From: a virus
Direction: 5' to 3' (one strand)
DNA: 64,000 nucleotides
IMG/VR virus record: IMGVR_UViG_3300025759_000081
Location: 2,558-66,557 of that record
Position 1 is the stretch's first letter. Every line of letters begins with the position of its first letter. This document shows positions 1,346 to 17,946 of the stretch, piece after piece. The translations under genes were made by a program, and so were the position numbers. The notes beneath the pieces were generated by a model. It ran no database searches, had not been told where the DNA came from, and worked only from the letters and a program-made list of their open reading frames with translations.

Positions 1346-1374
1346 TGTACAATTCTGCTCTATTATGGTAGAAT
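1346..1374 (+). promoter_or_regulatory. Early/middle promoter for gp55-47-46
   Basis: TGTACA (1346-1351), 17 bp, TAGAAT (1369-1374), with the TGG extended -10 and an A-tract upstream. Confidence 0.7.
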
Positions 1375-1401
1375 AGCATAGTAATTTTGAGAGGTATTCT
1401 T

Positions 1402-1893: not shown

Positions 1894-2958
1894 ATGAAAA
1901 TTGCAATCGTAACAGACATCCACATTGGTGGTCGTGGTGATAGTCAAATCTTTTCTAAGTTTCAAGAAAAGTTCTTTATGGAAGTTTTCTTTCCCTATGT
2001 TGATGAGCACGATATAAAAGTTGTATTCGATCTTGGTGATACGTTTGATCGTAGAAAATACATTAACTATTTGAGCCTTAAAAGAAGTAAAGAGTTTCTT
2101 TTTGATCAGTTAGCAAATCGAAACATAGACTTTCATGCTTTGGTTGGTAATCATTGTACATTTTATACGAACACCAATGAAGTCAACTCAATGCAGCTTT
2201 TGCTAGACGACTATCCTACATTTAAAATTTATGAAAGTAAAGCCGAAGAGGTTACGTTTGGATCTACTACTTTCCTTATGCTCCCTTGGCTCTGCCGCGA
2301 TAACGAACAAGAAAACTTTGAAATCATTGCCAAGAGTAAAGCAAATATAGTAATGGGTCATTTAGAAGTCAGAGGATTTGAAATGATGAAAGGCATGCCT
2401 TGTAATGATGGTATTGATATGAATGTGTTTAAAAATTTTGAGTCTGTTTATTCTGGTCACTTCCATCATCCCTCACGTCACCAGAACATTGAGTATCTCG
2501 GCGCTCCTTATGAAATGACATGGTCAGATTACCAAGGTAGTCGAGGCTTTCATGTGTTTGATACAGAGACTCGTGAAGTAACTAAAATTGAAAATCCATT
2601 TAGAATGTTTCATAAAATTGAGTACGATGATTCTAATATGACGATCGATGACGTAGCTCATCTCGATACATCTAGTTATAAAGATACATATATTAAAGTC
2701 ATTGTAAAAAATAGGTCTAACGCCTACATTTACGATATGTTTATGAATAGGTTAAATGACGAAGGAGTTGCTGACATCAAAGCAATTGATGATGCACTTA
2801 ACTTAGAATCTTCTGGTGTTGAAGAAATTTTAGACGAAACGAAAGACACTACAGAAATTCTACACAACTATATTGATTCATTGGAAACAACAGCAGATAT
2901 AAACGCCGTTAAGAAAACGGTTGATGAATTATATCAAGAGGCTTTAAGTATAGCATGA
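1894..2958 (+). CDS. 47: gp47 recombination endonuclease subunit (Mre11/SbcD-like)
   Basis: Metallophosphoesterase motifs TDIH, LGDTFD, VGNH, MGH and SGHFH; directly upstream of gp46. Confidence 0.95.
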   Translation: MKIAIVTDIHIGGRGDSQIFSKFQEKFFMEVFFPYVDEHDIKVVFDLGDTFDRRKYINYLSLKRSKEFLFDQLANRNIDFHALVGNHCTFYTNTNEVNSMQLLLDDYPTFKIYESKAEEVTFGSTTFLMLPWLCRDNEQENFEIIAKSKANIVMGHLEVRGFEMMKGMPCNDGIDMNVFKNFESVYSGHFHHPSRHQNIEYLGAPYEMTWSDYQGSRGFHVFDTETREVTKIENPFRMFHKIEYDDSNMTIDDVAHLDTSSYKDTYIKVIVKNRSNAYIYDMFMNRLNDEGVADIKAIDDALNLESSGVEEILDETKDTTEILHNYIDSLETTADINAVKKTVDELYQEALSIA

Positions 2959-4667: not shown

Positions 4668-4718
4668 TGCACTTTTACGTACATATAAGTGTCAACAAAG
4701 TGCACTTTTACGTACATA
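4666..4718 (+). repeat. Perfect 20-bp direct repeat AGTGCACTTTTACGTACATA, two copies
   Basis: Identical copies at 4666-4685 and 4699-4718 (33-bp period), just upstream of the gp43 promoter. Confidence 0.9.
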
Positions 4719-4734
4719 AAAATGTATATAGTGG

Positions 4735-4763
4735 TTGACATTTACAATTGTTTGTGGTAGAAT
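4735..4763 (+). promoter_or_regulatory. Early promoter for gp43
   Basis: TTGACA (4735-4740), 17 bp, TAGAAT (4758-4763) with TGG. The gp43 ATG is at 4770. Confidence 0.85.
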
Positions 4764-4769
4764 AGCACC

Positions 4770-7322
4770 ATGATTAAGAAATTTTATACAAATGTTGAAC
4801 GTTGGGGTAATCAAATTCTCTGGCGTGGTTATGATGAAGAAGGTAGATTTCAGCGTAAAGTTACGTTTAAACCTACCATGTATACCACTGGTAATCCTAA
4901 GAAAGAGTCGAGCCTATACAGATCTCTGATTGGCAACAAGCAACTCTTTCCCATGCAGTTCGATACTATGCGCGAGGCAAAGAACTTTATCGAAGAGTAT
5001 AAAGATGTCGGTGGCATGGAAATCTATGGTAATACTAATTTTATTTCTCAGTTCATTCAGCGAGCTTATCCTGGAGAAATTGAGTTTGATCAGGACCGAA
5101 TCAACATTGTTTCTTTTGATATTGAGGTTGACATTAGCGATGGCTATCCTAACGTTGATGAAGCTGACAAGGAAATCACCTCAATCGCATATAAGTCTTC
5201 CCTCTCTGACAAGTATATCCTACTCGGTCGCAAAGACTATGATAAGTATCAGACGACAACAGACATCGACCCCGATGATATCGAGTTCGTAAAGTTTGAC
5301 ACTGAGCTTGAATTACTTCGCTACTTTGTTAAAGTTTGGCGTAAGAATTTTCCGGATATTGTTACTGGTTGGAACGTCGAGTACTTCGATATCTCATATA
5401 TCGTGACTCGAATCATTAGGCTCTGTGGAGAAGAGATGGCTCAACAGCTCTCTCCCTGGGGCTCCATTCGAAAAACTGTGCGTGAGTTTTTTGGTAAACC
5501 TCAAAGCACTTATGAAATTAAAGGTCTCAGTGTTATTGATTACATGGATGCTTTTAAAAAGTTTGGGTATAAGTATGGTCCTCAAGAATCATACAAACTC
5601 GATCACATTGCTCATGTAGTTCTCGGTGAGAAAAAACTAGACTACTCTGAGTATGGTAACTTGACTGCACTCTATGAGCAAAACCCTCAACTCTATCTCG
5701 ATTATAACCTTAAAGACACTCAACTTATCCAACGAATGGAAGACGAGACAGGCTTGCTTGCACTCGTAATGACCGTTGCTTATGGTGGTGGTGTAAACTA
5801 TAACGACGCCTTTGGTACGGTTGGGATTTGGGAAACTACAATCTATCGTAGACTTATTAAAGATAAGATTGTTCCTCCTCTCAAACGAGGTCCTGGTCAA
5901 AGAGGCGGAGATTTAGTCGGTGGTTATGTTAAAGATCCCCAGGTTGGTCTACATCCGTGGGTTGTGTCTTTTGATTTAAACTCTCTGTATCCTCACCTAA
6001 TGTTACAATATAACATGTCACCTGAAACTTACATTTCGGATGTTCGTGAGTATGTAACACAAGACATGGTGCTAAAAGGCGAGTATAGTAATCAAAATCC
6101 GAGCATGTCTGTTTGTGCCAATGGCGTATGCTTTACGAAAGAGAATGTTGGAATTATTCCTCAAATCATTGATGAGTATTACAACAATCGTTCTCTAATC
6201 AAAAAGAATATGTTAAAAGTCGAGCAACAACTTGAAAATGAAAAAGATCCTCGACAAAAAGCTCTATTGAAAAAGGAAGTGAATCAGCTACATAATTCTC
6301 AGATGGCTATCAAGATTTCCATGAACTCTCTTTATGGTGCTACTGCTAACATCTACTTTCTTTACTATATTAATGAAATGGCTGAAGCAATCACTACATC
6401 TGGTCAGCTCAGCATTCGATACGCACAAAAGTCTGTCAATGATTATCTCAATAAGATACTCAAGACGGATGGAAAAGACTACATCGTGTACATCGATACA
6501 GATTCGATCTATGTTAACTTTGGCCCTTTAGTCAAAGAAGTGTTTGGCACAACTGACATTGATCGAAGTCAAGGCGAAGAGTTTCTTGACAAAATTTGTT
6601 CCACAAAAATCGAAGAGGTAATTGAAAACGGCTATATTGATCTCGCTAAGAAAATGGGTGTTTATCGACAAGCAATGGTTATGAAAAGAGAAAAGATCAC
6701 TGATAGATCAATCTTTATTGCTAAGAAACGCTATATTATGAATACACTTAATAGCGAAGGTGTACATTATGAAAAGCCTAAAATTTCAGTTACTGGTCTT
6801 GAGTCCGTGAGATCTTCGACACCTCAAATTTGCCGTGATAAGATGAAAGAAATTTTCTCTGTCATTATGAATGAAGGTGAGACCGAGACTCAACACTTTA
6901 TTGCAAACTTCAAACGTTTGTTTAAAACTTTACCAGCAGAAGATATTGCTAAGACATCAGGTACTGATAACATTGATAAGTATCGTGATCGGAAAACTGG
7001 TGGATATAAGAAAGGTTGTCCTATGCATGTTCGAGGTTGTATTCTTTATAACAATCAACTCATACAAAAAAGAATCGACAAAAAGTTCGAAGCAATTCGC
7101 TCAGGTGACAAGATCAAGTTCTTATATCTCAAGGTTCCAAATCCTTTACGAGAAAATATGGTTTCATTCCCAGGCGTTCTTCCTAAAGAACTTGGCCTCG
7201 ATGCATACATAGACTATGACAAGCAATTTGACAAAGTGTTTCTTTCTCCTATTGAAGCAATTCTTGAAGCTCTTAGCTGGTCGTCTGAAAAAGTCAATAC
7301 GCTTGAAGATTTTTTTAGTTGA
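4770..7322 (+). CDS. 43: gp43 family B DNA polymerase
   Basis: Exonuclease motifs DIEV, GWNVEYFD and YNLKD. Polymerase motifs SFDLNSLYP, KISMNSLYG and YIDTDS. C-terminal clamp-binding TLEDFF. No intein-sized insertion. Confidence 0.97.
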   Translation: MIKKFYTNVERWGNQILWRGYDEEGRFQRKVTFKPTMYTTGNPKKESSLYRSLIGNKQLFPMQFDTMREAKNFIEEYKDVGGMEIYGNTNFISQFIQRAYPGEIEFDQDRINIVSFDIEVDISDGYPNVDEADKEITSIAYKSSLSDKYILLGRKDYDKYQTTTDIDPDDIEFVKFDTELELLRYFVKVWRKNFPDIVTGWNVEYFDISYIVTRIIRLCGEEMAQQLSPWGSIRKTVREFFGKPQSTYEIKGLSVIDYMDAFKKFGYKYGPQESYKLDHIAHVVLGEKKLDYSEYGNLTALYEQNPQLYLDYNLKDTQLIQRMEDETGLLALVMTVAYGGGVNYNDAFGTVGIWETTIYRRLIKDKIVPPLKRGPGQRGGDLVGGYVKDPQVGLHPWVVSFDLNSLYPHLMLQYNMSPETYISDVREYVTQDMVLKGEYSNQNPSMSVCANGVCFTKENVGIIPQIIDEYYNNRSLIKKNMLKVEQQLENEKDPRQKALLKKEVNQLHNSQMAIKISMNSLYGATANIYFLYYINEMAEAITTSGQLSIRYAQKSVNDYLNKILKTDGKDYIVYIDTDSIYVNFGPLVKEVFGTTDIDRSQGEEFLDKICSTKIEEVIENGYIDLAKKMGVYRQAMVMKREKITDRSIFIAKKRYIMNTLNSEGVHYEKPKISVTGLESVRSSTPQICRDKMKEIFSVIMNEGETETQHFIANFKRLFKTLPAEDIAKTSGTDNIDKYRDRKTGGYKKGCPMHVRGCILYNNQLIQKRIDKKFEAIRSGDKIKFLYLKVPNPLRENMVSFPGVLPKELGLDAYIDYDKQFDKVFLSPIEAILEALSWSSEKVNTLEDFFS

Positions 7323-8196: not shown

Positions 8197-8398
8197 TATG
8201 AATTCAAAATATAACCTACTCACTAAGCTCGATGTAATTACTGACGTAATTAAAGAAATTGAAGACAACATTCCTTCTCAAGCCGGCGGTCATTATTACA
8301 CTGCTCTTAATGTATTGGCAGAAATTGAAGACAAGACTCGGGCAGAATTGCAGTCAAGTCTCGTAAAAACTCCGGAACAAAAATCTCTTTTTAATTAA
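8189..8398 (+). CDS. Hypothetical protein
   Basis: 69-aa ORF overlapping the upstream stop. Confidence 0.6.
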   Translation: MISMNSKYNLLTKLDVITDVIKEIEDNIPSQAGGHYYTALNVLAEIEDKTRAELQSSLVKTPEQKSLFN

Positions 8399-8460
8399 TA
8401 ACTTACGTACATAGATACATAAGTTATTGTTTTTATTTGGAAAAAAATACCAAATAATAG

Positions 8461-8489
8461 TGTACAATTGTGACATTTTATTGTAGAAT
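8461..8489 (+). promoter_or_regulatory. Early promoter heading the 8552-16637 operon
   Basis: TGTACA (8461-8466), 17 bp, TAGAAT (8484-8489). A short GTCAG/CTGAC hairpin (8497-8517) and SD AGGAG precede the ATG at 8552. Confidence 0.75.
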
Positions 8490-8551
8490 GGTTCTTGTCA
8501 GTGAATTGAAAGCTGACGCCGAAAAAACCACTTAATTAGGAGTAGAAACTA

Positions 8552-9886
8552 ATGAAGCAACTCGAATATAGAAAACTCAATGCAATGGAATTGTATTTGA
8601 TGTTAGATTCCGGCGATCTGAATCCCGATCCTATCGGTCAGCGCCCACCTACATCATCTGGTCCAAAAAAATCTATTGGTATCATCAAGTCGCTAATTGA
8701 AGAATTTGGCATAGGTATGATTACTATTCGTGATATTTCCAACGATCCTATTGCGCAGGCTATATACGGCTGTAAGTATCTTGTCATCGACGGCGGTCAC
8801 CGTTGTCGTGCAATTATGCAATACTTTAAAGGTAAGATTACAGTCAACGGCGAAAGATATCTTGATTCAGATATTGATCTAAAAGATTATGACATCATTC
8901 TTGATATTCGTGAGTGTACGGCTGCTGAGTCGTGTATTTTGTTTCGTAACATTAATACGACTACTCCTACGAACTTCATGGAAATGATCATGTCTGATGA
9001 AGAATCATTGAATTGTAAGTTCATTCGAAGCCAGACCTCTTATGTTAAAGAGTATGGTAACGAAGTTCATCCTCTTTTCAAGCACCATATTGATGGTCAA
9101 GGAAATCAGAAGATTGATCACTGGGACAACAACCATATCAATCCACGAAGAAAGTGGGATGAGTATGTAGCTATCGCTTGTATTCGAGCTGCTGCAAGGG
9201 GCAACGTTGATGCTGGTCAACCAGCGATTGAAGAGTTGTCTACTGCTCCAGAAATTTCTTCACGAGTAAAAAAGGAAGTTGATAAATTCCTTAATGCTTG
9301 TGCAGACCTCCGTAAGTTTAGACAAAACGCTATGAATGCTGATGTAATGGGTGCTTTCACACTCTTTTACTTTGGCATCATGGGTGAGTTCAAGTCTGGC
9401 TTCCGCATTAACAGCAAGCGATTCTATCAAGATTTTATGCAGGCTCACTTCATACTAACTGGCAAAAAAGATAAGACTCTTGAAGATGAGATTATCCAAA
9501 CACCAGATGGAGATGCCTTTGTAAAAGAATATGTTCGTAAAAACATTAAGAACTTTGCAAACGGTCTTGATCAAGATTTTACATATACATTGTATATGTC
9601 TCAGATTAGAAATCTAGATGTAACGAAGATTGATGAAAAGCGAACAGAAACAAAAAACAACAAAGAAGAAATGCTTGCTCTTCAGGGTTATAAGGATGCA
9701 CTCACAGGCAAAGAGTTAGACTTAAACAGTTCAGCGTATAGCCATGATGTTGCGCATAGCCTTGGCGGCGAGTCGACTGACGAAAACTCTTACATTGCAG
9801 ATCAAGAGATTAACAGATTGATTGGTCTACTTGATAAGGAAAAAGCAAAAGAGTTTTTGAAACTATTGGCTGAATCGGAGGCATAA
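8552..9886 (+). CDS. DUF262/ParB-like N-terminal domain plus C-terminal HNH-like domain (GmrSD-like architecture)
   Basis: LNPDPIGQR, YLVIDGGHRCRAI (DGQ[Q/H]R-type motif) and LFRNINTTTP at the N terminus. C-terminal LQGYKDALTG..L....SHDVAHSLGG.ST.EN......EIN resembles an HNH domain that lacks the Zn cysteines. Confidence 0.65.
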   Translation: MKQLEYRKLNAMELYLMLDSGDLNPDPIGQRPPTSSGPKKSIGIIKSLIEEFGIGMITIRDISNDPIAQAIYGCKYLVIDGGHRCRAIMQYFKGKITVNGERYLDSDIDLKDYDIILDIRECTAAESCILFRNINTTTPTNFMEMIMSDEESLNCKFIRSQTSYVKEYGNEVHPLFKHHIDGQGNQKIDHWDNNHINPRRKWDEYVAIACIRAAARGNVDAGQPAIEELSTAPEISSRVKKEVDKFLNACADLRKFRQNAMNADVMGAFTLFYFGIMGEFKSGFRINSKRFYQDFMQAHFILTGKKDKTLEDEIIQTPDGDAFVKEYVRKNIKNFANGLDQDFTYTLYMSQIRNLDVTKIDEKRTETKNNKEEMLALQGYKDALTGKELDLNSSAYSHDVAHSLGGESTDENSYIADQEINRLIGLLDKEKAKEFLKLLAESEA

Positions 9887-9888
9887 AT

Positions 9889-10146
9889 ATGTTTAGATGT
9901 GTTACAATCGGTAAAGATCCACTCAAAAGTAGATGGACTAGAAAAAGCTGGCGTGGTAGTATTTGGATAAGACAAAATATTCATATGTATAATACAGTTA
10001 CTGCAACTTGTAGAGAAGCTGAATTATTGCTAATGAATTGTTTTGGATTGTGGAAAGATCGCGATGATAAAAATTATCCACGTTGGTATGTTGATGATAA
10101 AGATTTACAAGAGTTTGTTTTGAGAGAAATGAGGCGTGTAATATGA
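9889..10146 (+). CDS. Hypothetical protein
   Basis: 85 aa, 2 nt after the upstream stop, ATGA overlap with the kinase gene. Confidence 0.65.
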   Translation: MFRCVTIGKDPLKSRWTRKSWRGSIWIRQNIHMYNTVTATCREAELLLMNCFGLWKDRDDKNYPRWYVDDKDLQEFVLREMRRVI

Positions 10147-10697
10147 TACTAATTGTTGAAGGTATGGATAATTGTGGTAAGTCTACGTTAATTAAAGATC
10201 TTCGTAAAGAATACTTCACTCGTCCTACCACCATTTGTCATCACTCTACGAGTCCACCTAAGGATACTCAATTTCCTGACTTGTGGGAAGGTCGTCACTA
10301 TGGCGACCTTTTCAGCTTGTTCACTAGTATTGTTACAGAAAATCATTATGATATAGTCTTAGATAGATTTCACTTAGGTGCTATCGTCTATGGTGCTAAG
10401 TATAGAAGCTCAGATCCTCATATGATTAAAACTATTGATAAACAATATCTTCAAAATAATTTTGAATCTGCTCTTTTATTATTGACAGACTCTAATGAAG
10501 GGATTATGTCACGTGATGACGGAATGACTATTGAACAAACGTCAGAAGAATATGATGATGTTAGGCGTAGGTTTATAGATGCTTTTAGTGAGTCTCATTG
10601 CCCAAACAAACTTCATATTGATATTACAAAAGACGTTAAAACTATTGACAAAGTATTGCCAAATGTGTTAGAATGGCTTAACAAAATTGAGGAATGA
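10143..10697 (+). CDS. Deoxynucleoside monophosphate kinase (thymidylate-kinase-like; candidate hm-dCMP kinase)
   Basis: ILIVEGMDNCGKST P-loop, VLDRF motif, and its position next to dCMP hydroxymethylase. Confidence 0.8.
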   Translation: MILIVEGMDNCGKSTLIKDLRKEYFTRPTTICHHSTSPPKDTQFPDLWEGRHYGDLFSLFTSIVTENHYDIVLDRFHLGAIVYGAKYRSSDPHMIKTIDKQYLQNNFESALLLLTDSNEGIMSRDDGMTIEQTSEEYDDVRRRFIDAFSESHCPNKLHIDITKDVKTIDKVLPNVLEWLNKIEE

Positions 10698-11374
10698 AAA
10701 TGCAAACTGTAAGTGACATCCGCAAAAAGTTAATGATAAAACGCATTGAAAAAGATTACGTTATTGATAAGACCGGTGTCAAAACAATTGAACTCATCGG
10801 TGAATCATTTATTGCCGACGAAGATTGGATTATTCGCAAGCCTAACTTAGAATACGTTAAACGTGAACTTGATTGGTATCATAGTCAATCATTATATGTA
10901 AATGATATTCCAGGAGATACTCCACAAATTTGGAAACAAATTGCTTCTGACTTCGGCCAAATCAATTCAAATTATGGTCATCTTATTTGGTCAGAAGAAA
11001 ATGGTCATCAATATAATCATGTCTTGCATGAATTGAGAAATAATCCTGATAGTCGTAGAGCAACTATGATTTATAATCGGCCGAGCATGCATCTTGACTA
11101 TAACCGAGAAGGTATGAATGATTTTGTTTGTACATATGGAAATCAATTCATGATCCGTGATGATAAACTCGTATCACATTATATTATGCGATCTAACGAC
11201 GCCGTGTTTGGTTATTGTAACGATGTTCATTGGGCAATGCATGTACATGACATGCTCGCTTATGACTTAAAAATTGAAAAAGGCGACTTAATTTGGACAG
11301 CTTCATCTTTTCATATCTATGAAAGACATTTTAAATTCTTAGACAAAATGTTTGGATTAAAAGAAGATGAGTAA
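10694..11374 (+). CDS. 42: dCMP hydroxymethylase (T4 gp42-like, thymidylate synthase fold)
   Basis: INSNYG, NPDSRRA, DFVCT (catalytic Cys), MRSNDAVFGYCND and SSFHIYERH. It has Asp at the position that confers dCMP specificity in gp42, where thymidylate synthase has Asn. Confidence 0.88.
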   Translation: MKMQTVSDIRKKLMIKRIEKDYVIDKTGVKTIELIGESFIADEDWIIRKPNLEYVKRELDWYHSQSLYVNDIPGDTPQIWKQIASDFGQINSNYGHLIWSEENGHQYNHVLHELRNNPDSRRATMIYNRPSMHLDYNREGMNDFVCTYGNQFMIRDDKLVSHYIMRSNDAVFGYCNDVHWAMHVHDMLAYDLKIEKGDLIWTASSFHIYERHFKFLDKMFGLKEDE

Positions 11375-11840
11375 TAATTGGGATACGAGATTTTTATATC
11401 TTGCAAAAGAAGTTAGTACGTGGTCTAAAGATCCAAGTACTCAAATAGGGGCCGTTATTGTAAATGAGAATCGAAGAATTCTTGCTACAGGATATAATGG
11501 GTTTCCTCGTGGTATTTTTGATAAAGATGAACGACTAAATAATCGAGAAGAAAAATATAAACTCGTTGTCCACGCTGAAATGAACGCCATCTATAACGCT
11601 ACATTCAATGGCGTTTCTCTTGATAAAGCAACTTTATATGTGTGGGGTTTACCTGCTTGTTCTGAATGTGCAAAAGGTATTATCCAAGTTGGCATTAAAA
11701 AGGTTGTAATGGCTGACATAAATAAAGTTGACAGGTGGCAAAAATCGTTTGAGATTTCTAAAACTTTATTTGATGAAGCAAGTATTGAATATAAAATGGT
11801 AGAAGTGAATGGATTACAAAAGAATAGCGATAATAAGTAA
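11367..11840 (+). CDS. cd: dCMP deaminase
   Basis: SKDPSTQIGAVI, TGYNGFPRG, HAEMNA and PACSECAK zinc-deaminase motifs. Confidence 0.92.
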   Translation: MSNNWDTRFLYLAKEVSTWSKDPSTQIGAVIVNENRRILATGYNGFPRGIFDKDERLNNREEKYKLVVHAEMNAIYNATFNGVSLDKATLYVWGLPACSECAKGIIQVGIKKVVMADINKVDRWQKSFEISKTLFDEASIEYKMVEVNGLQKNSDNK

Positions 11841-12657
11841 CTGGCGAACTGGAAGTACTTATTTTACTATGAAAAAAGCACACGAACATGGTGTGCCTTT
11901 TATGGGTGAGTTATTTCATGTATCTAGACCATTTTCAATTGGAGAAGTTCCTCGTGGTTGGATCACCGAAGAGTCCATTCGAGAAGAATTAAGGCATCTT
12001 CCTGCAAAAGAAGCTTCAGACACAATGATTATTGAAGCTCTTGAAAATGGCCACCCAGGTTGTTTTAATTTACGTCCCGGTCAAATTGAAGACAAATATT
12101 GGCCTTACCTTTTTGAAAATCTTGATAAAGTCTATTACCTCTATAGAAGAAATTGGGATGCCCAAGTTAGAAGTTTTGTATCGGTTGATCTTAGAGGAGA
12201 CTGGGGTGTAACTGGTTGGTTTTTTCAAAGACCTGGAGATGAACACACTCCACCAGACCATACAGACGAAGAAATGAGAAATCAAAAAATACTTGGGACT
12301 TGGTATAATCGTACTAAACCTTACATATCTAAAGTAAGACCAACGTTTGATTTGCTTGAAGATAGAGCAGCCCTTCTTATTAGAGAATACATAAGAATGT
12401 ATCGTTGTTATAAGCAACACCCAGGTGAATTAGTTGCTTATGAAGATTGGTACACCGGTGAACAATATAGACCAGACAATAAGCACGTTTATTATCTTGG
12501 TGAAGAAGAGTTAATGTATCCAAAGTTTGACACCGTAGGTCTTTTTGAACGAGACGAATATGGCGTAATTAAAAAGGAACATACTCCTCACCCAGATCCG
12601 TGGGGCCCTCGAAATATTGAACCATCTATAGATCCTTGGAGTAAAAATAAATTATGA
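11809..12657 (+). CDS. Sulfotransferase-like protein (Stf0-like P-loop fold)
   Basis: IAIISNWRTGSTY resembles the 5'-PSB loop, followed by GELF. YYLYRRNWDAQVRS resembles the 3'-PB motif. LVAYED lies near the C terminus. Confidence 0.6.
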   Translation: MDYKRIAIISNWRTGSTYFTMKKAHEHGVPFMGELFHVSRPFSIGEVPRGWITEESIREELRHLPAKEASDTMIIEALENGHPGCFNLRPGQIEDKYWPYLFENLDKVYYLYRRNWDAQVRSFVSVDLRGDWGVTGWFFQRPGDEHTPPDHTDEEMRNQKILGTWYNRTKPYISKVRPTFDLLEDRAALLIREYIRMYRCYKQHPGELVAYEDWYTGEQYRPDNKHVYYLGEEELMYPKFDTVGLFERDEYGVIKKEHTPHPDPWGPRNIEPSIDPWSKNKL

Positions 12658-13886
12658 AAAACATTTCTATTATTATGGCCCGCGGCATTGAAGGCTGTGG
12701 TGTTACTAAGTATACTGTCGAGCAAGTTAAATGGCTCAAAAAGAATGGGTACAACGTAAAAGTTTTTGCTTCAAAAGACAAATCTTTTTCTCGCAAGAAT
12801 GCTCATGTACACGATTTTGAAGTGTTTAAATTTGCAGATGATACCCTTCTTGATGATATGATCACTCGATGTAATGAGTCTGATCTTATCATTATTAATT
12901 CTCTACCAGCCAAGGGGAACGGTAGAGGTAAAGGTGTAGGAGATAAAGCACTCGACAATTGGGTAAAGGCACTCAAGTCATTTAAGAAGCCCGTAGTGCT
13001 TATTCAACACGACCATACGGTTTACTCAATCAAAAGAAATGGTGCTCTAGAAGAAGCTATCGATGCTGCTAGCATTATCTTTGTTCATTCTACAAATAAC
13101 GACTTTTCTCAGTATGTAAAAGAATACGTTGGTGATACTGGTCTTTCTTCATTTTTTGGTGAAAGCTCTGATAAAAAAATCTTAGCCTTTCAACCCGGCA
13201 TTGACTTTGACGAACATCGAGAAAAGTATTGGAAAGATTGTAAAGAACAAGATCGATTACATCATAAGTGGATTGGTCGTACTACAAGCTGGAAAGGTTA
13301 TCAACTTATGTTTGATTGGCATACCAACTGGCTTCAAGGCGCAGGGTATGCTACTACATTCGAAGGAATTGAAAAGTCGCCGGCTTGGTTATCGTTTAAA
13401 GAATGCGGTGAATTTTTTGATGAAATGAAAAACCATCCTAATGATGTTAACATTACAGAAAGATATGGAGAAAAAGCATCTGTCTTTAGTACATTCATCC
13501 AAGACGAGCTAATGGAAAGAATGTCGAAGGTTGGATTTGGTTATCAGCTCAGTGTACTCAAGCCAAAATATATTGAACGATCAATTGAATATACCCATCA
13601 AGAAATTGTTGCAGCTGGCGCTGTTCCAGTGTTTCGAAAAGAATATGGTGAAGTATGCATACATAGAGTAACCGGCGATCCACTTATCCATTGTAAAAAC
13701 AACGGTACGCTTTGGATAGGTAATGATGTTGAAAGTCGAGCCGGTGTACTTGATCACATTAAACAACTCAATGATGATGGTTATCGAGACGCATATCGAG
13801 AAGCAGCATTTGAATTTTATAAGCAACATCAAGACGCTTCAAATACCTTTGAAGATTTGATGACAAACATTAAGGAAAACCTATGA
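12654..13886 (+). CDS. agt: DNA alpha-glucosyltransferase (T4 a-gt-like, GT-B)
   Basis: MARGIEGCGVTK, KDKSFSR, QHDH, YWKD, KWIGRTTSWKG, ERMSKVGFGYQLS, RSIEYTH and AFEFYKQHQD match T4 a-gt as remembered, along its whole length (410 aa). Confidence 0.9.
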   Translation: MKNISIIMARGIEGCGVTKYTVEQVKWLKKNGYNVKVFASKDKSFSRKNAHVHDFEVFKFADDTLLDDMITRCNESDLIIINSLPAKGNGRGKGVGDKALDNWVKALKSFKKPVVLIQHDHTVYSIKRNGALEEAIDAASIIFVHSTNNDFSQYVKEYVGDTGLSSFFGESSDKKILAFQPGIDFDEHREKYWKDCKEQDRLHHKWIGRTTSWKGYQLMFDWHTNWLQGAGYATTFEGIEKSPAWLSFKECGEFFDEMKNHPNDVNITERYGEKASVFSTFIQDELMERMSKVGFGYQLSVLKPKYIERSIEYTHQEIVAAGAVPVFRKEYGEVCIHRVTGDPLIHCKNNGTLWIGNDVESRAGVLDHIKQLNDDGYRDAYREAAFEFYKQHQDASNTFEDLMTNIKENL

Positions 13887-15076
13887 TTAAACACGCATCC
13901 ATTGTACCACTTATTGGAGGTGAAACAATAGGTTCTGAAATCGCTTTTGGCGAAGCACCTACCTATATGATGTCATACGAGGCGTTTGAAGGGAATGATG
14001 CTCATGCCCGTAACTATTACGGTGGTGTTCCATACTACGTTCTAGATAAAGGAGAGAGACCTACAGAGAGTGTTGATGTAGTATCTTCTGTATGCCCGTG
14101 TGCTGGACTATCTCAATTATCTCACGGATTTGGTGATGATAATCCAAACAATCAATGGATGCCTAAGACAGCATCATACGTATTAGAACAAATTAAACCA
14201 AAAGTATTCTGGGGTGAAAATGCACCAGGATTTGCAGGTAAGATTGGTGAAACGGTACGAAATCAGTTGAAGCAAATTGGAAAAGAAAATGGATATACAA
14301 TGAGCGTATATCGTACAAAAACTCTTCTTCACGGTGGACCACAAATTCGAGAGAGATCATTCTATTTCTTTTGGCGAGATGATAAGGTACCTTTATTGAG
14401 TTGGTTCAATAAACCTCACAAAAAGATTGAAGACGTACTTATGAGTGTGAAAGGTAATAACTTTCAAACAGATGTTATTAATCCAAAGACTCCATCAAAA
14501 GATGATCTCTATTATAAGTTTGCACTTGAGCACATTCATGGAGGCATGGAGCATAAAGACTTTGCTCAAATTGTTGAACCTCAAAAGGTGAGGAACGCCG
14601 ATATTTTTTCATATATAGAACGTATGGGTTATGATTATACTCAAGTTGGTGAATGGATGGCATCTCAAGGCTACGATAAAGAAGTTGAGAAATGTAAATA
14701 TCGAGTTGAAAAGCTTAAGGCCGGTGGTAATATTATGAGAAGAGGTACAATTATTCCTAAGGATTACATCGGGGCTTTCGTTGGCCACTATCCTACAATG
14801 TTAACTCATCCAGAAGAAGATCGTTATATCAATTATCGAGAAGCAATGACGATCATGGGTTTGCCTGAAGACTTTGAATTATTGAATCCGAAGAAGAGCG
14901 CGAATCATATCTGTCAAAATGTACCTGTGCAGACTGCCGCAGACATGGCGTCGGAAGTTAAAAAATATTTGAACAATGAGCTTCCACTAGTTGACACCGA
15001 CTATGTTTTACAGTATAATAAAGGTCAAAAATCTGAATACATTGAAAAAAAGTCAACTCTTGAGGCGTTTATATGA
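13883..15076 (+). CDS. C5-cytosine DNA methyltransferase homologue with non-canonical motif I
   Basis: Motif IV VCPCAGLS, VI GENAPG, VIII QIRER, IX RYINYREAMTIMGLPEDF, X CQNVPV. Motif I reads VPLIGG instead of FxGxGG. Confidence 0.78.
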   Translation: MIKHASIVPLIGGETIGSEIAFGEAPTYMMSYEAFEGNDAHARNYYGGVPYYVLDKGERPTESVDVVSSVCPCAGLSQLSHGFGDDNPNNQWMPKTASYVLEQIKPKVFWGENAPGFAGKIGETVRNQLKQIGKENGYTMSVYRTKTLLHGGPQIRERSFYFFWRDDKVPLLSWFNKPHKKIEDVLMSVKGNNFQTDVINPKTPSKDDLYYKFALEHIHGGMEHKDFAQIVEPQKVRNADIFSYIERMGYDYTQVGEWMASQGYDKEVEKCKYRVEKLKAGGNIMRRGTIIPKDYIGAFVGHYPTMLTHPEEDRYINYREAMTIMGLPEDFELLNPKKSANHICQNVPVQTAADMASEVKKYLNNELPLVDTDYVLQYNKGQKSEYIEKKSTLEAFI

Positions 15077-15684
15077 AACATTTAATATTTGATTTTGAAA
15101 CAATGGGCTCAGACCCTAGTAATTGCGCAGTCGTTGACGTTTCTGCAATGGTGTTTGATTGGGATAGATTTGAAACAAATCCTTACACTTGCAAAGATAT
15201 TAGTATGACTCGAAAATTTAAATTGTCTGTTAGCGATCAAGTAAAAAACTATGGATTTAAAATAGAACAAAGTGTACTTGATTTTTGGGAATCTCAACCT
15301 AAAGAAGTAAAGAAAAACATTGTTCCCAAGAAGACTGACTTGTCAGTTAAAGAATTCGTCCAAGAGTTTCATGATTTCTTAATTGACGCCGGCCAAATTG
15401 GTCATTGGTGGACTCGATCAAATACGTTTGATCCTGTTATATTAACTCGGCTCTTCGCTGCAGAAAATAAAAAGTCTCACATGGAAGAGTACCTTAAGTA
15501 TTATCTCGTTCGTGATACACGTACATGGATTGATGCTAAACTTAATTTCCCTAAAAAGAATGGATTTATAATTGATGAGTGGCAAGAAAGTTTTAAAGCT
15601 CACGATAGTTCTTGGGATATTTTAATTGATGTGTTGCGATTACAAAAATTACATCGGGTAGAATTTGATTTAGAGGATGAATAA
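15073..15684 (+). CDS. dexA: DexA-like DEDDh 3'-5' exonuclease
   Basis: LIFDFET, SNTFDPVIL, VRDTRTWI and HDSSWDILID motifs. Confidence 0.8.
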   Translation: MKHLIFDFETMGSDPSNCAVVDVSAMVFDWDRFETNPYTCKDISMTRKFKLSVSDQVKNYGFKIEQSVLDFWESQPKEVKKNIVPKKTDLSVKEFVQEFHDFLIDAGQIGHWWTRSNTFDPVILTRLFAAENKKSHMEEYLKYYLVRDTRTWIDAKLNFPKKNGFIIDEWQESFKAHDSSWDILIDVLRLQKLHRVEFDLEDE

Positions 15685-16637
15685 TGACAGAAGAAAATAC
15701 TAAAATTACTATAGACCAGCTTCAACCTTATAGTCTTTTTCTTGCCACTCCAATGTATGGTGGGCAATGTACGGGAACTTATACAAAAGCTGTTACAGAA
15801 TTATCAATGATGTGTGCGACAAACGGAATTAAAATTAAACATTACTTTTTATTTAATGAGAGCTTAATACAACGTGCAAGAAACTATTGTGTAGACGAAT
15901 TTATGAGATCTGATTGCACTCATTTATTGTTTATTGACGCAGACGTATCTTTTAATCCAAAAGATGTTCTTACAATGTTAGCTATTCAGATTTCTAATCC
16001 AGAAAAATATGATATTGTAAGTGGCGCTTATCCAAAGAAAACGATTGCTTGGGAAAAAGTAGTGACGGCTGTGCGCAATGGAAGGGCGGAAAACTCTCCT
16101 TTCGATCTTGATCAATACATTGGTGATTTTACGTTTAATCCTATTCAAAATGGTGAGCAACAAAAATTTGCTGTAACAGATCCTATTGAAGTAGCAGAAG
16201 CTGCAACTGGGTTTATGCTCATACCTAGATATGCTCTTGAAAAATACAGAGATGAATATCCAGAATTATCGTATAAACCAGATCATGCAAGAACAGAAAA
16301 CTTTGATGGAACAAGAGAAATAACCGCTTTCTTTGATTGTGGCATTGATCCGGAATCAAAAAGATATCTTTCAGAAGACTATTTCTTTAGTCATAAAGCA
16401 AGAGCAATTGGTCTTAATTTGTGGATGTGTCCTTGGATTAATCTTAACCACATGGGTTCGTATGTGTTTAAAGGTAATCTTCCAGCCGTTAGTTCATTAC
16501 CTAATACGTCTGCGACTGCTTCAAAACAATCTATGAAAAGTTATTATCAACAAAAAGACGATTTAACTGGGATAAAAGCAAGTCCCTTACCATCCACTTT
16601 AAGAAACCAAAAGAAAAGAAATCGTAAAAAGTCATGA
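15684..16637 (+). CDS. GT-A fold glycosyltransferase
   Basis: LFLATPMYGG, NESLIQRARN, HLLFIDAD (DxD), ATGFMLI, YLSEDYFF, and a late H.G motif. Confidence 0.8.
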   Translation: MTEENTKITIDQLQPYSLFLATPMYGGQCTGTYTKAVTELSMMCATNGIKIKHYFLFNESLIQRARNYCVDEFMRSDCTHLLFIDADVSFNPKDVLTMLAIQISNPEKYDIVSGAYPKKTIAWEKVVTAVRNGRAENSPFDLDQYIGDFTFNPIQNGEQQKFAVTDPIEVAEAATGFMLIPRYALEKYRDEYPELSYKPDHARTENFDGTREITAFFDCGIDPESKRYLSEDYFFSHKARAIGLNLWMCPWINLNHMGSYVFKGNLPAVSSLPNTSATASKQSMKSYYQQKDDLTGIKASPLPSTLRNQKKRNRKKS

Positions 16638-16646
16638 CTAGTAATT

Positions 16647-16654
16647 TATAAATA
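16647..16654 (+). promoter_or_regulatory. T4-type late promoter TATAAATA
   Basis: Exact gp55 consensus just upstream of the 16663/16684 ORF. Confidence 0.7.
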
Positions 16655-16662
16655 TTTAGAAA

Positions 16663-17151
16663 ATGACTTTAGACACTTACCCAATGAAAATGTTCAAAAC
16701 ATTTATTAATGAAGTATTAAATAAGCCCTATCCTTATTCTGCAATAAAAAAGTGGAGTGATCCTACTGCAGACAAAGCGTATAGATCTTATTTTGAAACT
16801 GATGATGGTTCAGAGATTGATGTTTTATTTACAGGCAAGGAACATATGGATGACTATGATCATCTTGACTGGGAGATAGAATTCAAGCGAAATGGATCTC
16901 TTGAAGTCACAGGTGAAGGTGATGCTCTGCGTATTATTGCAACTGTGATGAAGATAGTAAGAGATTTTATCAAGCTTGAAAATCCAAAATATATGAATCT
17001 AATGGCAGCAAAGCCTAAAGGCTCTAATAAAAAACTATCTGGTCGAGAGCGTCTTTATAGCCGATTGATACAAAAAGAAGTCGGTAGTAAATATAAGGTA
17101 CGGGTTGATAATAGTTCGTCTGGAACTGCCTGGAATATAGAAAAAAAGTAA
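16663..17151 (+). CDS. Hypothetical late protein, possible head-internal protein (likely start 16684)
   Basis: Follows a late promoter. An internal ATG at 16684 gives MKMFKTFINE, resembling a T4 capsid-targeting sequence. Confidence 0.65.
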   Translation: MTLDTYPMKMFKTFINEVLNKPYPYSAIKKWSDPTADKAYRSYFETDDGSEIDVLFTGKEHMDDYDHLDWEIEFKRNGSLEVTGEGDALRIIATVMKIVRDFIKLENPKYMNLMAAKPKGSNKKLSGRERLYSRLIQKEVGSKYKVRVDNSSSGTAWNIEKK

Positions 17152-17219
17152 CAAAATTATAATTGGCATCACAACAGTAGCTACATACTTAAAATTTTAG
17201 TAGTTAAACCAAAAAACAG

Positions 17220-17248
17220 TTGACATTTTGCCTACACTATGGTAGAAT
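17220..17248 (+). promoter_or_regulatory. Early promoter for the gp45 operon
   Basis: TTGACA (17220-17225), 17 bp, TAGAAT (17243-17248) with TGG. Confidence 0.82.
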
Positions 17249-17280
17249 AGCACTTGATTATGACAGGAGAAACTTATATT

Positions 17281-17946
17281 ATGAAATTCAGTGATTCAAC
17301 TCTTACTGTGCTTAAGAGTTTTTCGACAATCAATCGGTCGATACAACTCCAGCCGGGTAACACACTTAAAACTATTACCCCCGAAAAGACATTAATTGCT
17401 ACAGCTAAAATTGGAGATGAAATTCCCTCTGAAGCTTGCATTTATGATCTTTCAAGATTTTTATCGATTTTATCTTTATATTCTAATCCAGACGTGGAAT
17501 TTCATGATAAATACTTTACTATATCTGAGGGAAAGCGTAAGACGAAATATGTTTACGCTGACATTTCAATGATTCATGTGCCTCCTCAAAAGGATATTCA
17601 TATCCCTGAAGAAGATGTTGTTGTTGATGTCAAGTGGGATGATCTTCAATCTGTAGTAAAAGCAGCTGGAGTCCTTCAGTTTAGTGAGATAGCATTCGTT
17701 GGTACCGACGGTAAATGTTATCTCAAAGCAATCTCATCTGAGCAAGAAGGTGCCGATGATTACGGTATCGAAATTGGTGAGACTGCTGATGAGTTTAAGA
17801 TTATTATTAAAACTGATAATCTCAAGCTCTTGCCTCAAGATTATAGAGTTGCCTTATGCTCAAAGGGTATTTCAGAATTTCGAGGCGAACAAGCTAGCTA
17901 CTTTGTAGCTATTGATTCTAAGTCGACTTACACAAAAGGAAGTTAA
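17281..17946 (+). CDS. 45: gp45 sliding clamp
   Basis: MKFSDSTLTVLKSFSTIN.SI....GN, IYDLSRFLSILSL and KTDNLKLLP.DY.V. SD AGGAG precedes the ATG at 17281. Confidence 0.93.
   Translation: MKFSDSTLTVLKSFSTINRSIQLQPGNTLKTITPEKTLIATAKIGDEIPSEACIYDLSRFLSILSLYSNPDVEFHDKYFTISEGKRKTKYVYADISMIHVPPQKDIHIPEEDVVVDVKWDDLQSVVKAAGVLQFSEIAFVGTDGKCYLKAISSEQEGADDYGIEIGETADEFKIIIKTDNLKLLPQDYRVALCSKGISEFRGEQASYFVAIDSKSTYTKGS

What the first reader, a model, noticed from the sequence alone, without database searches (positions are those of the whole stretch)
11809..12657. Sulfotransferase-like gene coupled to the DNA alpha-glucosyltransferase
The protein has a PAPS-binding-like loop (SNWRTGST) and a 3'-PB-like segment (LYRRNWDAQVRS), as in Stf0-type sugar sulfotransferases. 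Its start lies inside cd and its stop overlaps the a-gt start (ATGA). Stf0 sulfates a glucose-based sugar (trehalose), and a-gt places glucose on hmC, so the DNA-linked glucose is a plausible substrate. I know of no described sulfated DNA base or sugar, but cannot check the literature. Alternative: phage sulfotransferases also occur in surface-glycan gene islands.
Basis: partly seen in the sequence, partly recalled or inferred. Interest (0 to 1): 0.85.

Follow-up and report, generated by a model that had tools for sequence, protein, structure and literature searches.

The report
Phage sulfotransferase inside hydroxymethylcytosine-glucosylation operon
An uncultured T4-like water phage carries, wedged between its dCMP deaminase and its DNA alpha-glucosyltransferase genes, a gene of a virus-only, unannotated branch of the sugar-sulfotransferase family; it very probably transfers sulfate, but whether it sulfates the sugar on the phage's DNA (which would be a new DNA chemistry) is unproven, and the link to that glucosyltransferase is confined to this one lineage.

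Summary
ORF 11809-12657 (+, 282 aa) starts 32 nt inside cd and its TGA overlaps the first ATG of a-gt.

The sulfotransferase reading is supported:
- The protein itself has no Pfam, PHROG, NCBIfam or PDB sequence hit.
- A profile of 45 relatives aligns to the NodH family (hhalign 90%, E 1.4e-6, 160 columns).
- The AF2 model (pLDDT 84) matches Stf0 best (Z 9.8).
- Both PAPS motifs and a candidate catalytic Glu are near-invariant, and there is no Walker-A lysine.

The DNA-glucose reading is weakened:
- None of 81 related loci has an a-gt homologue.
- The nearest relative (L002) runs straight from X into the C5-methyltransferase-like gene.
- The family always lies in the early replication and nucleotide-metabolism module of one clade of aquatic T4-like phages. 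Most large contigs of that clade encode a T-even-type dCMP hydroxymethylase.
- In every arrangement with at least 14 called genes, a glycosyltransferase(-like) or sugar-nucleotide gene lies in the same locus, often a few genes from X, but the kind differs.
- X persists whichever sugar cassette is present, and its divergence does not track the cassette.

My odds: active sulfotransferase about 0.85; acceptor is the DNA-borne sugar about 0.3. No paper on sulfated DNA was found. Earlier notes of this scan on other phages proposed a small PAPS-synthesis gene pair. I found that pair in relatives, but not in this record.

The parts
11809..12657 (+). Gene X: 282-aa NodH/Stf0-like sulfotransferase-family protein. 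It belongs to a virus-only family with no Pfam or PHROG model.
   Evidence: ORF. No direct family hit. hhalign of the family profile against NodH: 90%, E 1.4e-6. AF2 model pLDDT 84. Best PDB match Stf0, Z 9.8. AFDB cluster hits are mostly sulfotransferases.
11836..11859 (+). 5'-phosphosulfate-binding (PSB) loop, SNWRTGST. It is the arginine type (R13-T-G-S16-T), as in Stf0 and NodH.
   Evidence: R13 in 45/45 and S16 in 44/45 relatives. Aligns to NodH PRTGTH. [quoted passage not shown]
11905..11910 (+). G33-E34, the candidate catalytic base after strand 2.
   Evidence: E in 43/45 relatives and H in the other two, P0002 and P0003. Aligns to the invariant NodH G38-E39. Glu or His are the known bases (PMC11625862). 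The role here is inferred.
12067..12084 (+). Strand motif FNLRPG. The family has a near-invariant Lys at position 87; in X and its three nearest relatives the basic residue sits at position 89 instead.
   Evidence: K87 in 41/45 relatives. P0001-P0004 have N or I at 87 and R or K at 89. K87 aligns to the invariant NodH K83.
12139..12174 (+). 3'-phosphate-binding (3'-PB) strand-turn-helix, LYRRNWDAQVRS (R114-x7-S122).
   Evidence: R113 in 44/45 and S122 in 44/45 relatives. Aligns to NodH IRRNTLESLRS.
12558..12654 (+). C-terminal tail (about residues 251-282) found only in this lineage and predicted disordered.
   Evidence: pLDDT below 50 for residues 265-282. Absent from the other family members in the alignment.
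11367..11840 (+). dCMP deaminase (cd), whose 3' end overlaps the start of X.
   Evidence: PF00383 at 2.3e-21; coordinates.
12654..13886 (+). DNA alpha-glucosyltransferase (a-gt), whose first ATG overlaps the stop of X.
   Evidence: PF11440 at 2.3e-77 over the full model length. phrog_2888 at 2.5e-95. 40-41% identity to T-even a-gt. No homologue in 81 related loci.
10694..11374 (+). dCMP hydroxymethylase (gp42-type), the source of hm-dCMP.
   Evidence: 52-59% identical to the gp42 of T-even-type phages over about 94% of its length. PF00303 at 4.9e-21.
10143..10697 (+). dNMP kinase-like P-loop kinase.
   Evidence: PF02223 at 1.2e-6.
13883..15076 (+). C5-cytosine methyltransferase-like gene that closes the variable sugar slot.
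   Evidence: PF00145 at 1e-19. Conserved after the sugar genes in relatives.
15684..16637 (+). GT-A-like protein, present in every large X-bearing contig checked.
   Evidence: Only weak Pfam and NCBIfam hits. 59-63% identical copies in 5 of 5 large X-bearing contigs, and in all related loci that reach gp45.

Best explanation
Gene X encodes an active PAPS-dependent O-sulfotransferase of the bacterial carbohydrate type (NodH/Stf0-like). R13 and S16 of the strand-loop-helix would hold the 5'-phosphosulfate. R114 and S122 would hold the 3'-phosphate. E34 would deprotonate the acceptor hydroxyl for in-line sulfuryl transfer. The gene is made with the early nucleotide-metabolism and DNA-modification genes, packed between cd and a-gt.

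My single most likely acceptor is a sugar hydroxyl of the glycosylated hydroxymethylcytosine that this phage builds: gp42 makes hm-dCMP, the kinase and polymerase put hmC into DNA, and a-gt adds alpha-glucose. The product would be a sulfated glycosyl-hmC. PAPS would come from the host in this phage.

Shown: the gene, its conservation, the fold, the PAPS motifs, the gene context, and the identities of gp42 and a-gt.
Inferred: catalytic activity (about 0.85), a sugar acceptor (about 0.6), and that the sugar is the one on DNA (about 0.3). The confidence given below is for the whole chain.
For: Enzyme class:
- hhalign of the 45-sequence family profile against an 18-sequence NodH profile gives 90.3%, E 1.4e-6 over 160 columns. 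It puts RTGST on RTGTH, GE on GE, K87 on K83 and RRxxxxxxxS on RRNTLESLRS.
- 7, 3 and 1 of 45 members give weak hits to PF09037, PF13469 and PF00685 respectively, and no other family recurs.
- The AF2 model has pLDDT 84 and pTM 0.81.
- The best solved structure is Stf0 (Z 9.8), then the OLS sulfotransferase domain (Z 8.8).
- NodH is top in AFDB Swiss-Prot at 6.2e-5.
- The AFDB cluster hits are dominated by sulfotransferases.
- The protein-atlas feature and structure neighbours are Stf0 and Sulfotransfer_3 clusters.
- The motif residues are near-invariant, and E34 changes only to His, the other known catalytic base.

Sugar acceptor: the characterised relatives NodH and Stf0 sulfate GlcNAc and trehalose (PMC11625862).

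DNA context:
- gp42 is 52-59% identical to that of T-even-type phages, and a-gt is a full-length PF11440 match.
- X overlaps cd and abuts or overlaps a-gt.
- All 81 related loci place X in the early replication and nucleotide-metabolism module: after gp43, after cd, or between RNase H/DUF6433 and an NT5C-like gene.
- Every gene arrangement printed in full (loci with at least 14 called genes) has a glycosyltransferase(-like) or sugar-nucleotide gene in the same locus. These are a-gt, a GT4-like protein, TAGT with an epimerase and a UDP-glucose dehydrogenase, UDP-galactopyranose mutase, a cytidylyltransferase with a weakly GT-like protein, GT1 or the GT-A-like gene.
- In the window, in L016 and in the after-cd arrangement (type C), X directly heads the sugar slot between cd and the C5-methyltransferase-like gene.

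Expression: a metatranscriptome assembly holds a 298-nt contig inside X. This is weak evidence, because DNA carry-over is not excluded.
Against: - X itself passes no curated family threshold.
- By structure alone, P-loop kinases score almost as well as sulfotransferases (Z 8.6 against 9.8; a mixed list).
- X lacks the family's Lys87. It has Arg89 instead, so compensation is assumed.
- a-gt is absent from all 81 related loci.
- The closest relative has no glycosyltransferase between X and the C5-methyltransferase-like gene.
- X keeps company with very different sugar cassettes, and its divergence does not track the cassette. For example, two TAGT phages with 88% identical gp43 have 58% identical X, while a UGM phage and a GT4-like phage with 93% identical gp43 have 53% identical X.
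- One large X-bearing contig (G002, gene arrangement E) shows no gp42 or C5-methyltransferase-like gene in the 118 kb recovered.
- Distant family members sit in unrelated early regions, for example next to rIIB.
- There is no DNA-binding domain.
- No paper in the searched library describes sulfated DNA.
- No PAPS-synthesis gene is present in the 68 kb of this record.
- Early regions of T4-like phages hold many unrelated accessory genes.
Confidence: 0.3

Rival explanations
1. X is an active sulfotransferase, but its acceptor is not on DNA. It would sulfate a host or phage glycan (an LPS, capsule or envelope precursor), a protein or a small metabolite during early infection, for example to change the cell surface or host metabolism. 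Its place beside a-gt would be an accident of a gene-shuffling early region.
For: - X is independent of a-gt and of the kind of sugar cassette.
- Its position moves between at least five arrangements.
- Distant members lie in other early regions, such as next to rIIB.
- The known relatives NodH and LpsS-type enzymes act on glycolipids and LPS (the names).
- X evolves much faster than its neighbours: 44% identity against 76-94% between the window and L002. That fits an arms-race surface function as well as a DNA one.
Against: - No locus found lies in a glycan-synthesis, structural or lysis module.
- X is always co-directional and tightly packed with replication and nucleotide genes.
- In three arrangements it directly heads the sugar genes that sit between cd and the C5-methyltransferase-like gene.
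- There is no signal peptide or membrane segment in the model.
Confidence: 0.35
2. X sulfates the 5-hydroxymethyl group itself, on hm-dCMP or on hmC in DNA. This would make a sulfate ester that serves as a leaving group for a later substitution. It would be the sulfate counterpart of the 5-hmdU DNA kinase step in thymidine hypermodification. The conserved C5-methyltransferase-like enzyme or another neighbour would then act on it.
For: - gp42 and the C5-methyltransferase-like gene are present in 4 of 5 large X-bearing contigs.
- This would explain why X does not depend on which sugar cassette is present.
- The kinase-activation pathway is described in PMC5889632; I saw only its title and abstract, and the mechanism is from my own knowledge.
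Against: - The nearest characterised relatives act on sugar hydroxyls, not benzylic-type alcohols.
- If hmC were activated and substituted, an a-gt that needs free hmC would compete for it.
- Gene arrangement E, and the after-gp43 loci that carry TAGT, have X but no gp42 in the module.
- There is no precedent.
Confidence: 0.08
3. X is not a sulfotransferase in function. It would be a P-loop-fold kinase-like or nucleotide-binding protein, or a degenerate PAP(S)-binding protein without transfer activity.
For: - Shikimate, adenylate and gluconate kinases score close to the sulfotransferases in the structure searches.
- X gives no hit to any curated sulfotransferase model.
- The family's Lys87 is Asn in X.
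Against: - There is no Walker-A GxxxxGK[ST]; the loop is xRTGST, with Arg where sulfotransferases have Lys or Arg.
- The R-x7-S 3'-PB motif is present and near-invariant.
- The profile-profile match to NodH covers 160 columns, including all motif positions.
- In the same four sequences the loss of K87 is matched by a gain of R or K at position 89.
Confidence: 0.12

Closest known systems
NodH (Sinorhizobium meliloti Nod-factor GlcNAc 6-O-sulfotransferase; Pfam PF13469 Sulfotransfer_3)
   Same: It is the best sequence-profile relative: hhalign 90%, E 1.4e-6 over 160 columns. It shares the arginine-type PSB loop (RTG[ST]), a GE after strand 2, a basic residue on the third strand and RRxxxxxxxS. 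Its size is similar at 247 aa. It is the top AFDB Swiss-Prot structural hit.
   Different: - X is under 20% identical to it and does not reach any Pfam threshold.
- X belongs to a virus-only family.
- NodH works with dedicated PAPS genes (nodPQ) on a lipochitooligosaccharide; X sits among DNA-metabolism genes.
- X has an insert at about residues 137-175 and a disordered tail.
Stf0 (mycobacterial trehalose 2-O-sulfotransferase; PDB 1TEX; Pfam PF09037)
   Same: It is the best solved-structure match: Z 9.8, 166 residues aligned, rmsd 4.2. It has an Arg-type PSB loop (PMC11625862). Its acceptor is a glucose-based sugar. Seven of 45 family members give weak PF09037 hits.
   Different: X itself gives no PF09037 hit, even at E up to 0.1. 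Sequence identity is about 10%. The Z score is only about 1 above unrelated P-loop kinases.
T-even phage glucosyl-hmC pathway (gp42, gp1, gp56, alpha- and beta-glucosyltransferase)
   Same: The window has gp42 (52-59% identity), a dNMP kinase-like gene, a PRA-PH/MazG-type NTP pyrophosphatase-like gene, cd and a true a-gt.
   Different: The T-even pathway as I know it has no sulfotransferase step (my own knowledge, not checked here). X also gave no tblastn match in 50,697 deposited phage records. Here a-gt is flanked by X and a C5-methyltransferase-like gene. Relatives of this phage swap a-gt for other sugar cassettes.
5-hmdU DNA kinase step of thymidine hypermodification (PMC5889632)
   Same: It is a P-loop-fold transferase encoded beside a hydroxymethyl-pyrimidine pathway that adds an anionic group after replication. 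This is a possible functional analogy.
   Different: It is a true Walker-A kinase that uses ATP and acts on the hydroxymethyl group. X has sulfotransferase motifs and no Walker-A lysine. The analogy comes from my own knowledge of that pathway and was not tested here.
Phage-annotated sulfotransferases (for example Synechococcus phage S-SCSM1 'Sulfotransferase' and sulfotransferase entries of uncultured marine viruses in BFVD)
   Same: They are viral and have the same general fold.
   Different: The structural similarity is only weak (E 0.015 to 0.07). As far as I could find, none has a described function or a DNA-modification context.

Membership tests
PAPS-dependent sulfotransferase superfamily | Alpha/beta fold with a central parallel sheet that carries the PAPS site. 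| tested here: met
   AF2 model with pLDDT 84. Best PDB match is Stf0 at Z 9.8, then the OLS sulfotransferase domain at Z 8.8. AFDB cluster hits are mostly sulfotransferases. Kinases of the same fold class score close behind, so the fold alone does not decide.
PAPS-dependent sulfotransferase superfamily | PSB strand-loop-helix with a conserved Lys or Arg plus Ser/Thr. | tested here: met
   R13-T14-G15-S16-T17 follows strand 1. R13 is kept in 45/45 and S16 in 44/45 relatives. The loop aligns to the NodH PSB. The feature is defined in PMC11625862.
PAPS-dependent sulfotransferase superfamily | 3'-PB strand-turn-helix with Arg and a helix Ser (R-x7-S). | tested here: met
   R114 to S122. R113 is kept in 44/45 and S122 in 44/45 relatives. 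The motif aligns to NodH RRNTLESLRS.
PAPS-dependent sulfotransferase superfamily | Catalytic base, His or Glu. | tested here: inconclusive
   E34 is kept in 43/45 relatives and replaced only by His. It aligns to the invariant NodH E39. Its position relative to PAPS could not be checked in three dimensions, and no activity data exist.
PAPS-dependent sulfotransferase superfamily | Significant sequence-profile match to a curated sulfotransferase family. | tested here: inconclusive
   X has no Pfam or NCBIfam hit. Among relatives, 11 of 45 give sub-threshold hits, the best at 9e-5 and 23.3 bits against a cut-off of 27. The profile-profile match to NodH is significant (90%, E 1.4e-6).
PAPS-dependent sulfotransferase superfamily | PAPS-dependent sulfuryl transfer. 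| not testable with these tools
   This needs the purified protein and 35S-PAPS or a PAP-release assay.
Stf0 family (Pfam PF09037) | Match to the family model above its gathering score. | tested here: not met
   X has no PF09037 hit, even at E up to 0.1 in Pfam or E up to 10 in a search of the phage record. Only weak hits come from 7 relatives. X is a sister group, not a member.
P-loop nucleotide/small-molecule kinases (the rival) | Walker A GxxxxGK[ST] with the catalytic lysine. | tested here: not met
   The loop reads ISNWRTGSTY. The family consensus is TNYRTGST, with no Lys at the Walker position.
T-even-type glucosyl-hmC DNA modification system (context) | dCMP hydroxymethylase, a kinase and a DNA glucosyltransferase in one phage. 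| tested here: met
   gp42-type hydroxymethylase at 52-59% identity. PF02223 kinase and PF11440 a-gt. a-gt is 40-41% identical to that of T-even phages. That the DNA really carries glc-hmC is inferred.
   No a-gt homologue in any of the 81 related loci. In L002, X is followed directly by the C5-methyltransferase-like gene.

The most novel reading that the evidence does not exclude
X and its family sulfate the sugar, or another hydroxyl, of glycosylated hydroxymethylcytosine in phage DNA. A widespread clade of aquatic T4-like phages would then carry a sulfate-ester DNA hypermodification, a chemistry I could not find described for any DNA. The rapid divergence of X would reflect an arms race with modification-dependent restriction.
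Probability: 0.27. Interest if true: 0.9.

Novelty: new variant of a known kind. Interest (0 to 1): 0.6.

Why it matters
Known phage DNA hypermodifications add sugars, amino acids, polyamines, carbamoyl or carboxymethyl groups. I found no report of a sulfate ester on DNA. A sulfated glycosyl-hmC would add a strong negative charge in the major groove. That could block enzymes that recognise glc-hmC, such as GmrSD-type ones, and it would affect sequencing and enzymatic handling of environmental phage DNA.

Even if the acceptor is not DNA, this work defines a virus-only sulfotransferase family of at least 52 cluster representatives that no Pfam or PHROG model covers. It also shows that one clade of aquatic T4-like phages combines a T-even-type hmC pathway with a highly variable sugar cassette.

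The question can be tested directly. T4 DNA is a ready alpha-glucosyl-hmC substrate, and E. coli makes PAPS (my own knowledge).

Tried and rejected
- Direct family searches with X found nothing: Pfam, PHROGs, NCBIfam, PDB sequences, and tblastn against 50,697 phage records.
- The first AF2 run, with a 2-sequence alignment, was unusable (pLDDT 43.6).
- A PDB profile search with the 45-sequence alignment gave only E above 0.1. NodH appeared at E 1.2 over the N-terminal 44 residues.
- The word-indexed homologue search with the profile added little.
- Foldseek against PDB and BFVD was weak and mixed.
- PF09037 was not found in the phage record. Its control genomes were also silent, so that call is uninformative.
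- The first attempt at search for related loci failed because the alignment was too diverse.
- I tested whether an APS-kinase-like gene and an adjacent HxGH nucleotidyltransferase-like gene mark a phage PAPS supply tied to X.
  - The pair lies about 7 kb upstream of X in many relatives.
  - It is absent from this phage's 68 kb.
  - It occurs in 475 IMG/VR stretches, including five large contigs without X.
  - No ATP sulfurylase was found.
  - I therefore do not count the pair as evidence for X.
- I tested whether X divergence tracks the sugar cassette. It does not.
- The contexts of three distant family members were uninformative or unrelated.
- I considered whether the conserved C-terminal D-[VI]-E-x-[LI]-F could be a clamp-binding tail. 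I dropped this because NodH has a similar C-terminal FFE, so it is probably part of the fold.
- I did not run complex prediction for X with a-gt, because I do not claim that they bind.
Full report
**1. The observation**

The ORF 11809..12657 on the + strand encodes 282 aa. It begins 32 nt before the stop of the dCMP deaminase gene (11367..11840). Its TGA overlaps the ATG at 12654 of the 410-aa alpha-glucosyltransferase frame. One gene caller starts a-gt at Met 8 instead, which leaves an 18-nt gap (L003). Either way the genes are tightly packed and co-directional. SNWRTGST is residues 10-17 and LYRRNWDAQVRS is residues 111-122.

The window is part of a 68.3-kb IMG/VR virus record estimated at 32% complete. 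Its DNA polymerase is about 44% identical to those of T4-like cyanophages. The surrounding genes are:
- a PRA-PH/MazG-like protein, a DUF262-like protein and a dNMP kinase-like protein;
- a thymidylate-synthase-fold protein, then cd, X and a-gt;
- a C5-methyltransferase-like protein, an exonuclease and a GT-A-like protein;
- then gp45 and gp44.

The thymidylate-synthase-fold protein is 52-59% identical to the gp42 dCMP hydroxymethylase of T-even-type phages. The a-gt matches PF11440 over its full length at 2.3e-77 and is 40-41% identical to T-even a-gt. The phage therefore almost certainly makes alpha-glucosyl-hmC DNA.

**2. Is X real and conserved?**

The identical protein is called on at least 10 contigs from JGI, ENA and Logan assemblies. 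DNA runs from 17 studies of freshwater, estuary and marine samples hold the stretch or part of it.

X itself has no Pfam, PHROG, NCBIfam or PDB-sequence hit, and no tblastn match in 50,697 deposited phage genomes. An exhaustive HMMER search of 1.84 billion representatives found 52 relatives, 10 of them below 1e-30. A scan of IMG/VR found 94 encoding stretches.

In a 45-sequence alignment (A2) the conserved blocks are TNYRTGST, GE, fKlMPxQ, YLYRRDFxAQxxS, PGExxCxED and PYN. R13 is invariant. S16, R113, S122 and E212 are each kept in 44 of 45, and E34 in 43 of 45.

**3. What is X?**

Four lines of evidence point the same way.

(a) Sequence profiles. Seven members hit PF09037 (Stf0), three hit PF13469 and one hits PF00685. 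All are below threshold, but no other family recurs. I fetched S. meliloti NodH from pSymA and built an 18-sequence NodH alignment. hhalign of the X family against it gives 90.3% probability, E 1.4e-6, over 160 columns. With the single NodH sequence it gives 50% and 1.6e-4. The alignment superposes the PSB loop, the GE, the basic residue of the third strand and the R-x7-S 3'-PB motif.

(b) Structure. With the 45-sequence alignment, AF2 gives pLDDT 84.2 and pTM 0.81.
- The alignment-independent search of 48,161 PDB chains ranks Stf0 first (Z 9.8) and the OLS sulfotransferase domain second (Z 8.8). Shikimate kinases follow at 8.6-8.2.
- In AFDB Swiss-Prot the top three hits are NodH, at 6e-5 to 2e-4.
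- In AFDB fold clusters most of the top 30 are sulfotransferases, including Stf0-domain and NodH entries.
- Foldseek against PDB is weak and mixed.

(c) Language-model and Atlas-structure neighbours are Stf0 and Sulfotransfer_3 clusters.

(d) Motif logic. A review of polysaccharide sulfotransferases defines the class by three features: a PSB Lys or Arg (Arg in Stf0, an RXG motif in NodH), a Ser on the PB helix, and a His or Glu base (PMC11625862). X has R13-T-G-S16, R114-x7-S122 and E34. There is no Walker-A lysine, which argues against a kinase. Two details fit function rather than drift:
- E34 is replaced only by His, in P0002 and P0003.
- The four sequences that lack Lys87 (X among them) all have Arg or Lys at position 89, two residues along the same strand.

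I put about 0.85 on an active PAPS-dependent sulfotransferase. X is a sister group of the Stf0 and NodH families, not a member of either Pfam family.

**4. What does the context say about the acceptor?**

I searched the 81 related loci with the window's own proteins, clustered their ORFs and annotated cluster representatives.

- a-gt has no homologue in any of the 81 loci.
- In the closest relative (L002) most neighbouring genes are 76-94% identical to the window's (the kinase 60%), but X is only 44% identical. There X runs straight into the C5-methyltransferase-like gene.

For a link to DNA modification:
- Every locus places X in the early replication and nucleotide-metabolism module. In 28 loci it follows gp43. 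In 11 it follows cd. In 32 it lies between RNase H/DUF6433 and an NT5C-like gene. Two rarer arrangements account for 9 more.
- Four of five large X-bearing contigs carry gp42 and a C5-methyltransferase-like gene, and all five carry the GT-A-like gene.
- The stretch between cd and the C5-methyltransferase-like gene is a variable sugar slot. It holds a-gt here and a GT4-like protein in L016, L046 and L080. In L012 it holds an epimerase, a 363-aa unknown protein and UDP-galactopyranose mutase. In the after-cd arrangement (type C) it holds a cytidylyltransferase and a 413-aa weakly GT-like protein.
- The after-gp43 loci that lack gp42 in the module carry a TET-associated glycosyltransferase (3.7e-44), mostly with an epimerase, plus a UDP-glucose dehydrogenase-like protein.
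- In the window, in L016 and in type C, X directly heads the sugar slot.

However, X is kept whichever cassette is present. Its divergence saturates at about 40-58% identity as soon as gp43 drops below about 93%, whether or not the cassette is the same. X is simply a fast-evolving gene, and the window's X together with that of L002 forms a long-branch clade.

**5. PAPS supply**

Four of five large relatives encode a 144-aa protein that passes the APS-kinase model (about 36 bits, N-terminal half only). It is followed by a 154-aa HxGH nucleotidyltransferase-like protein and a peptide deformylase. Earlier notes of this scan on other phages (e1-3274572, e1-3408483) had proposed such a pair as a minimal PAPS synthase.

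I confirmed that the pair lies about 7 kb upstream of X in gene arrangements A, C and E, and elsewhere on an arrangement-B contig. It is missing from this phage's 68 kb, including the syntenic site between gp55 and the gene before gp43. It also occurs in 475 IMG/VR stretches, among them five large contigs without X. No ATP sulfurylase was found. So it is a lead, not support for X. This phage would depend on host PAPS unless the genes lie in the unrecovered two thirds of the genome.

**6. Expression and signals**

- A metatranscriptome assembly holds contigs over much of the cluster, including 11826-12123 inside X. DNA carry-over cannot be excluded.
- Promoter-like and terminator-like matches in 8200-17400 are no more frequent than in shuffles (41 against 35.4 ± 6.3, and 6 against 4.5 ± 2.0).
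- No convincing terminator separates cd, X and a-gt.

**7. Verdict**

'Coupled to a-gt' is a lineage-specific arrangement.

The acceptor is open. A sugar is the most likely class, because the characterised relatives sulfate sugars. The DNA-borne sugar is the best single candidate because of the constant embedding in the hmC and sugar module. I give it about 0.3 and a non-DNA acceptor about 0.35.

I found no paper on sulfated DNA or on a sulfotransferase in a phage DNA-modification pathway. The library does not cover subscription journals.

Noticed in passing
L092:1498-1932 and L092:2092-2556 (same genes in L012:2875-3930); absent from window 1-4770: Relatives encode a 144-aa APS-kinase-like protein (PF01583, 36 bits, N-terminal half only) next to a 154-aa HxGH nucleotidyltransferase-like protein and a peptide deformylase, about 7 kb upstream of X. 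The pair occurs in 475 IMG/VR stretches, including contigs without X, and is missing at the syntenic site of this window.
   Followed up: partly
window 12654-13886 and the equivalent slot in L012:13962-16859, L016:10754-11971, L024:5959-7185 and L073:10295-11533: Across the clade, the stretch between cd and the C5-methyltransferase-like gene is a hypervariable sugar cassette. It holds a-gt in the window and a GT4-like protein in L016. L012 has an epimerase, a 363-aa unknown protein and UDP-galactopyranose mutase. L073 has a cytidylyltransferase and a weakly GT-like protein. L024 instead has a TET-associated glycosyltransferase with an epimerase and a UDP-glucose dehydrogenase. This suggests many different sugars on hmC.
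   Followed up: partly
window 15684-16637: The GT-A-like protein has only weak family hits. It is 59-63% identical in all five large X-bearing contigs and is present in every related locus that reaches gp45. It looks like a core gene of the clade, unlike the variable sugar cassette.
   Followed up: partly
window 11809-12657 compared with L002:6271-7026: X is 44% identical between this phage and its nearest relative, while gp43, PRA-PH, cd, gp42 and the C5-methyltransferase-like gene are 76-94% identical. Across the clade, phage pairs with 97% identical gp43 have X at only 54-76%. X is a fast-evolving gene whose PAPS motifs stay fixed.
   Followed up: yes
L037:4718-5302 (and 31 similar loci): In the largest group of relatives, the gene directly after X is an NT5C-like HAD 5'(3')-nucleotidase (E 1.5e-4). 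Whether it could remove the PAP by-product is pure speculation.
   Followed up: no
window 13883-15076: The C5-cytosine methyltransferase-like gene is 91% identical in L002 and sits after the sugar slot in most relatives, in phages whose C5 should already carry hydroxymethyl. A recent paper describes a phage C5-carboxymethyltransferase (PMC12783734); I saw only its title and abstract.
   Followed up: no
window 14991-15019: A perfect 12-of-12 sigma-70-type promoter match (TTGACA, 17 nt, TATAAT) lies inside the 3' end of the C5-methyltransferase-like gene, just upstream of the exonuclease gene. Overall, promoter-like matches in the region are no more frequent than in shuffles.
   Followed up: no
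window 8400-17200: A freshwater metatranscriptome assembly holds contigs over much of the cluster at 99-100% identity, including one inside X (11826-12123). This hints at expression in nature, but DNA carry-over is not excluded.
   Followed up: partly
window 8552-9886: Homologues of the DUF262/GmrSD-N-like 444-aa protein (47-50% identity) recur in six related loci between PRA-PH and gp42. It is therefore a conserved part of this module and not unique to the window.
   Followed up: no
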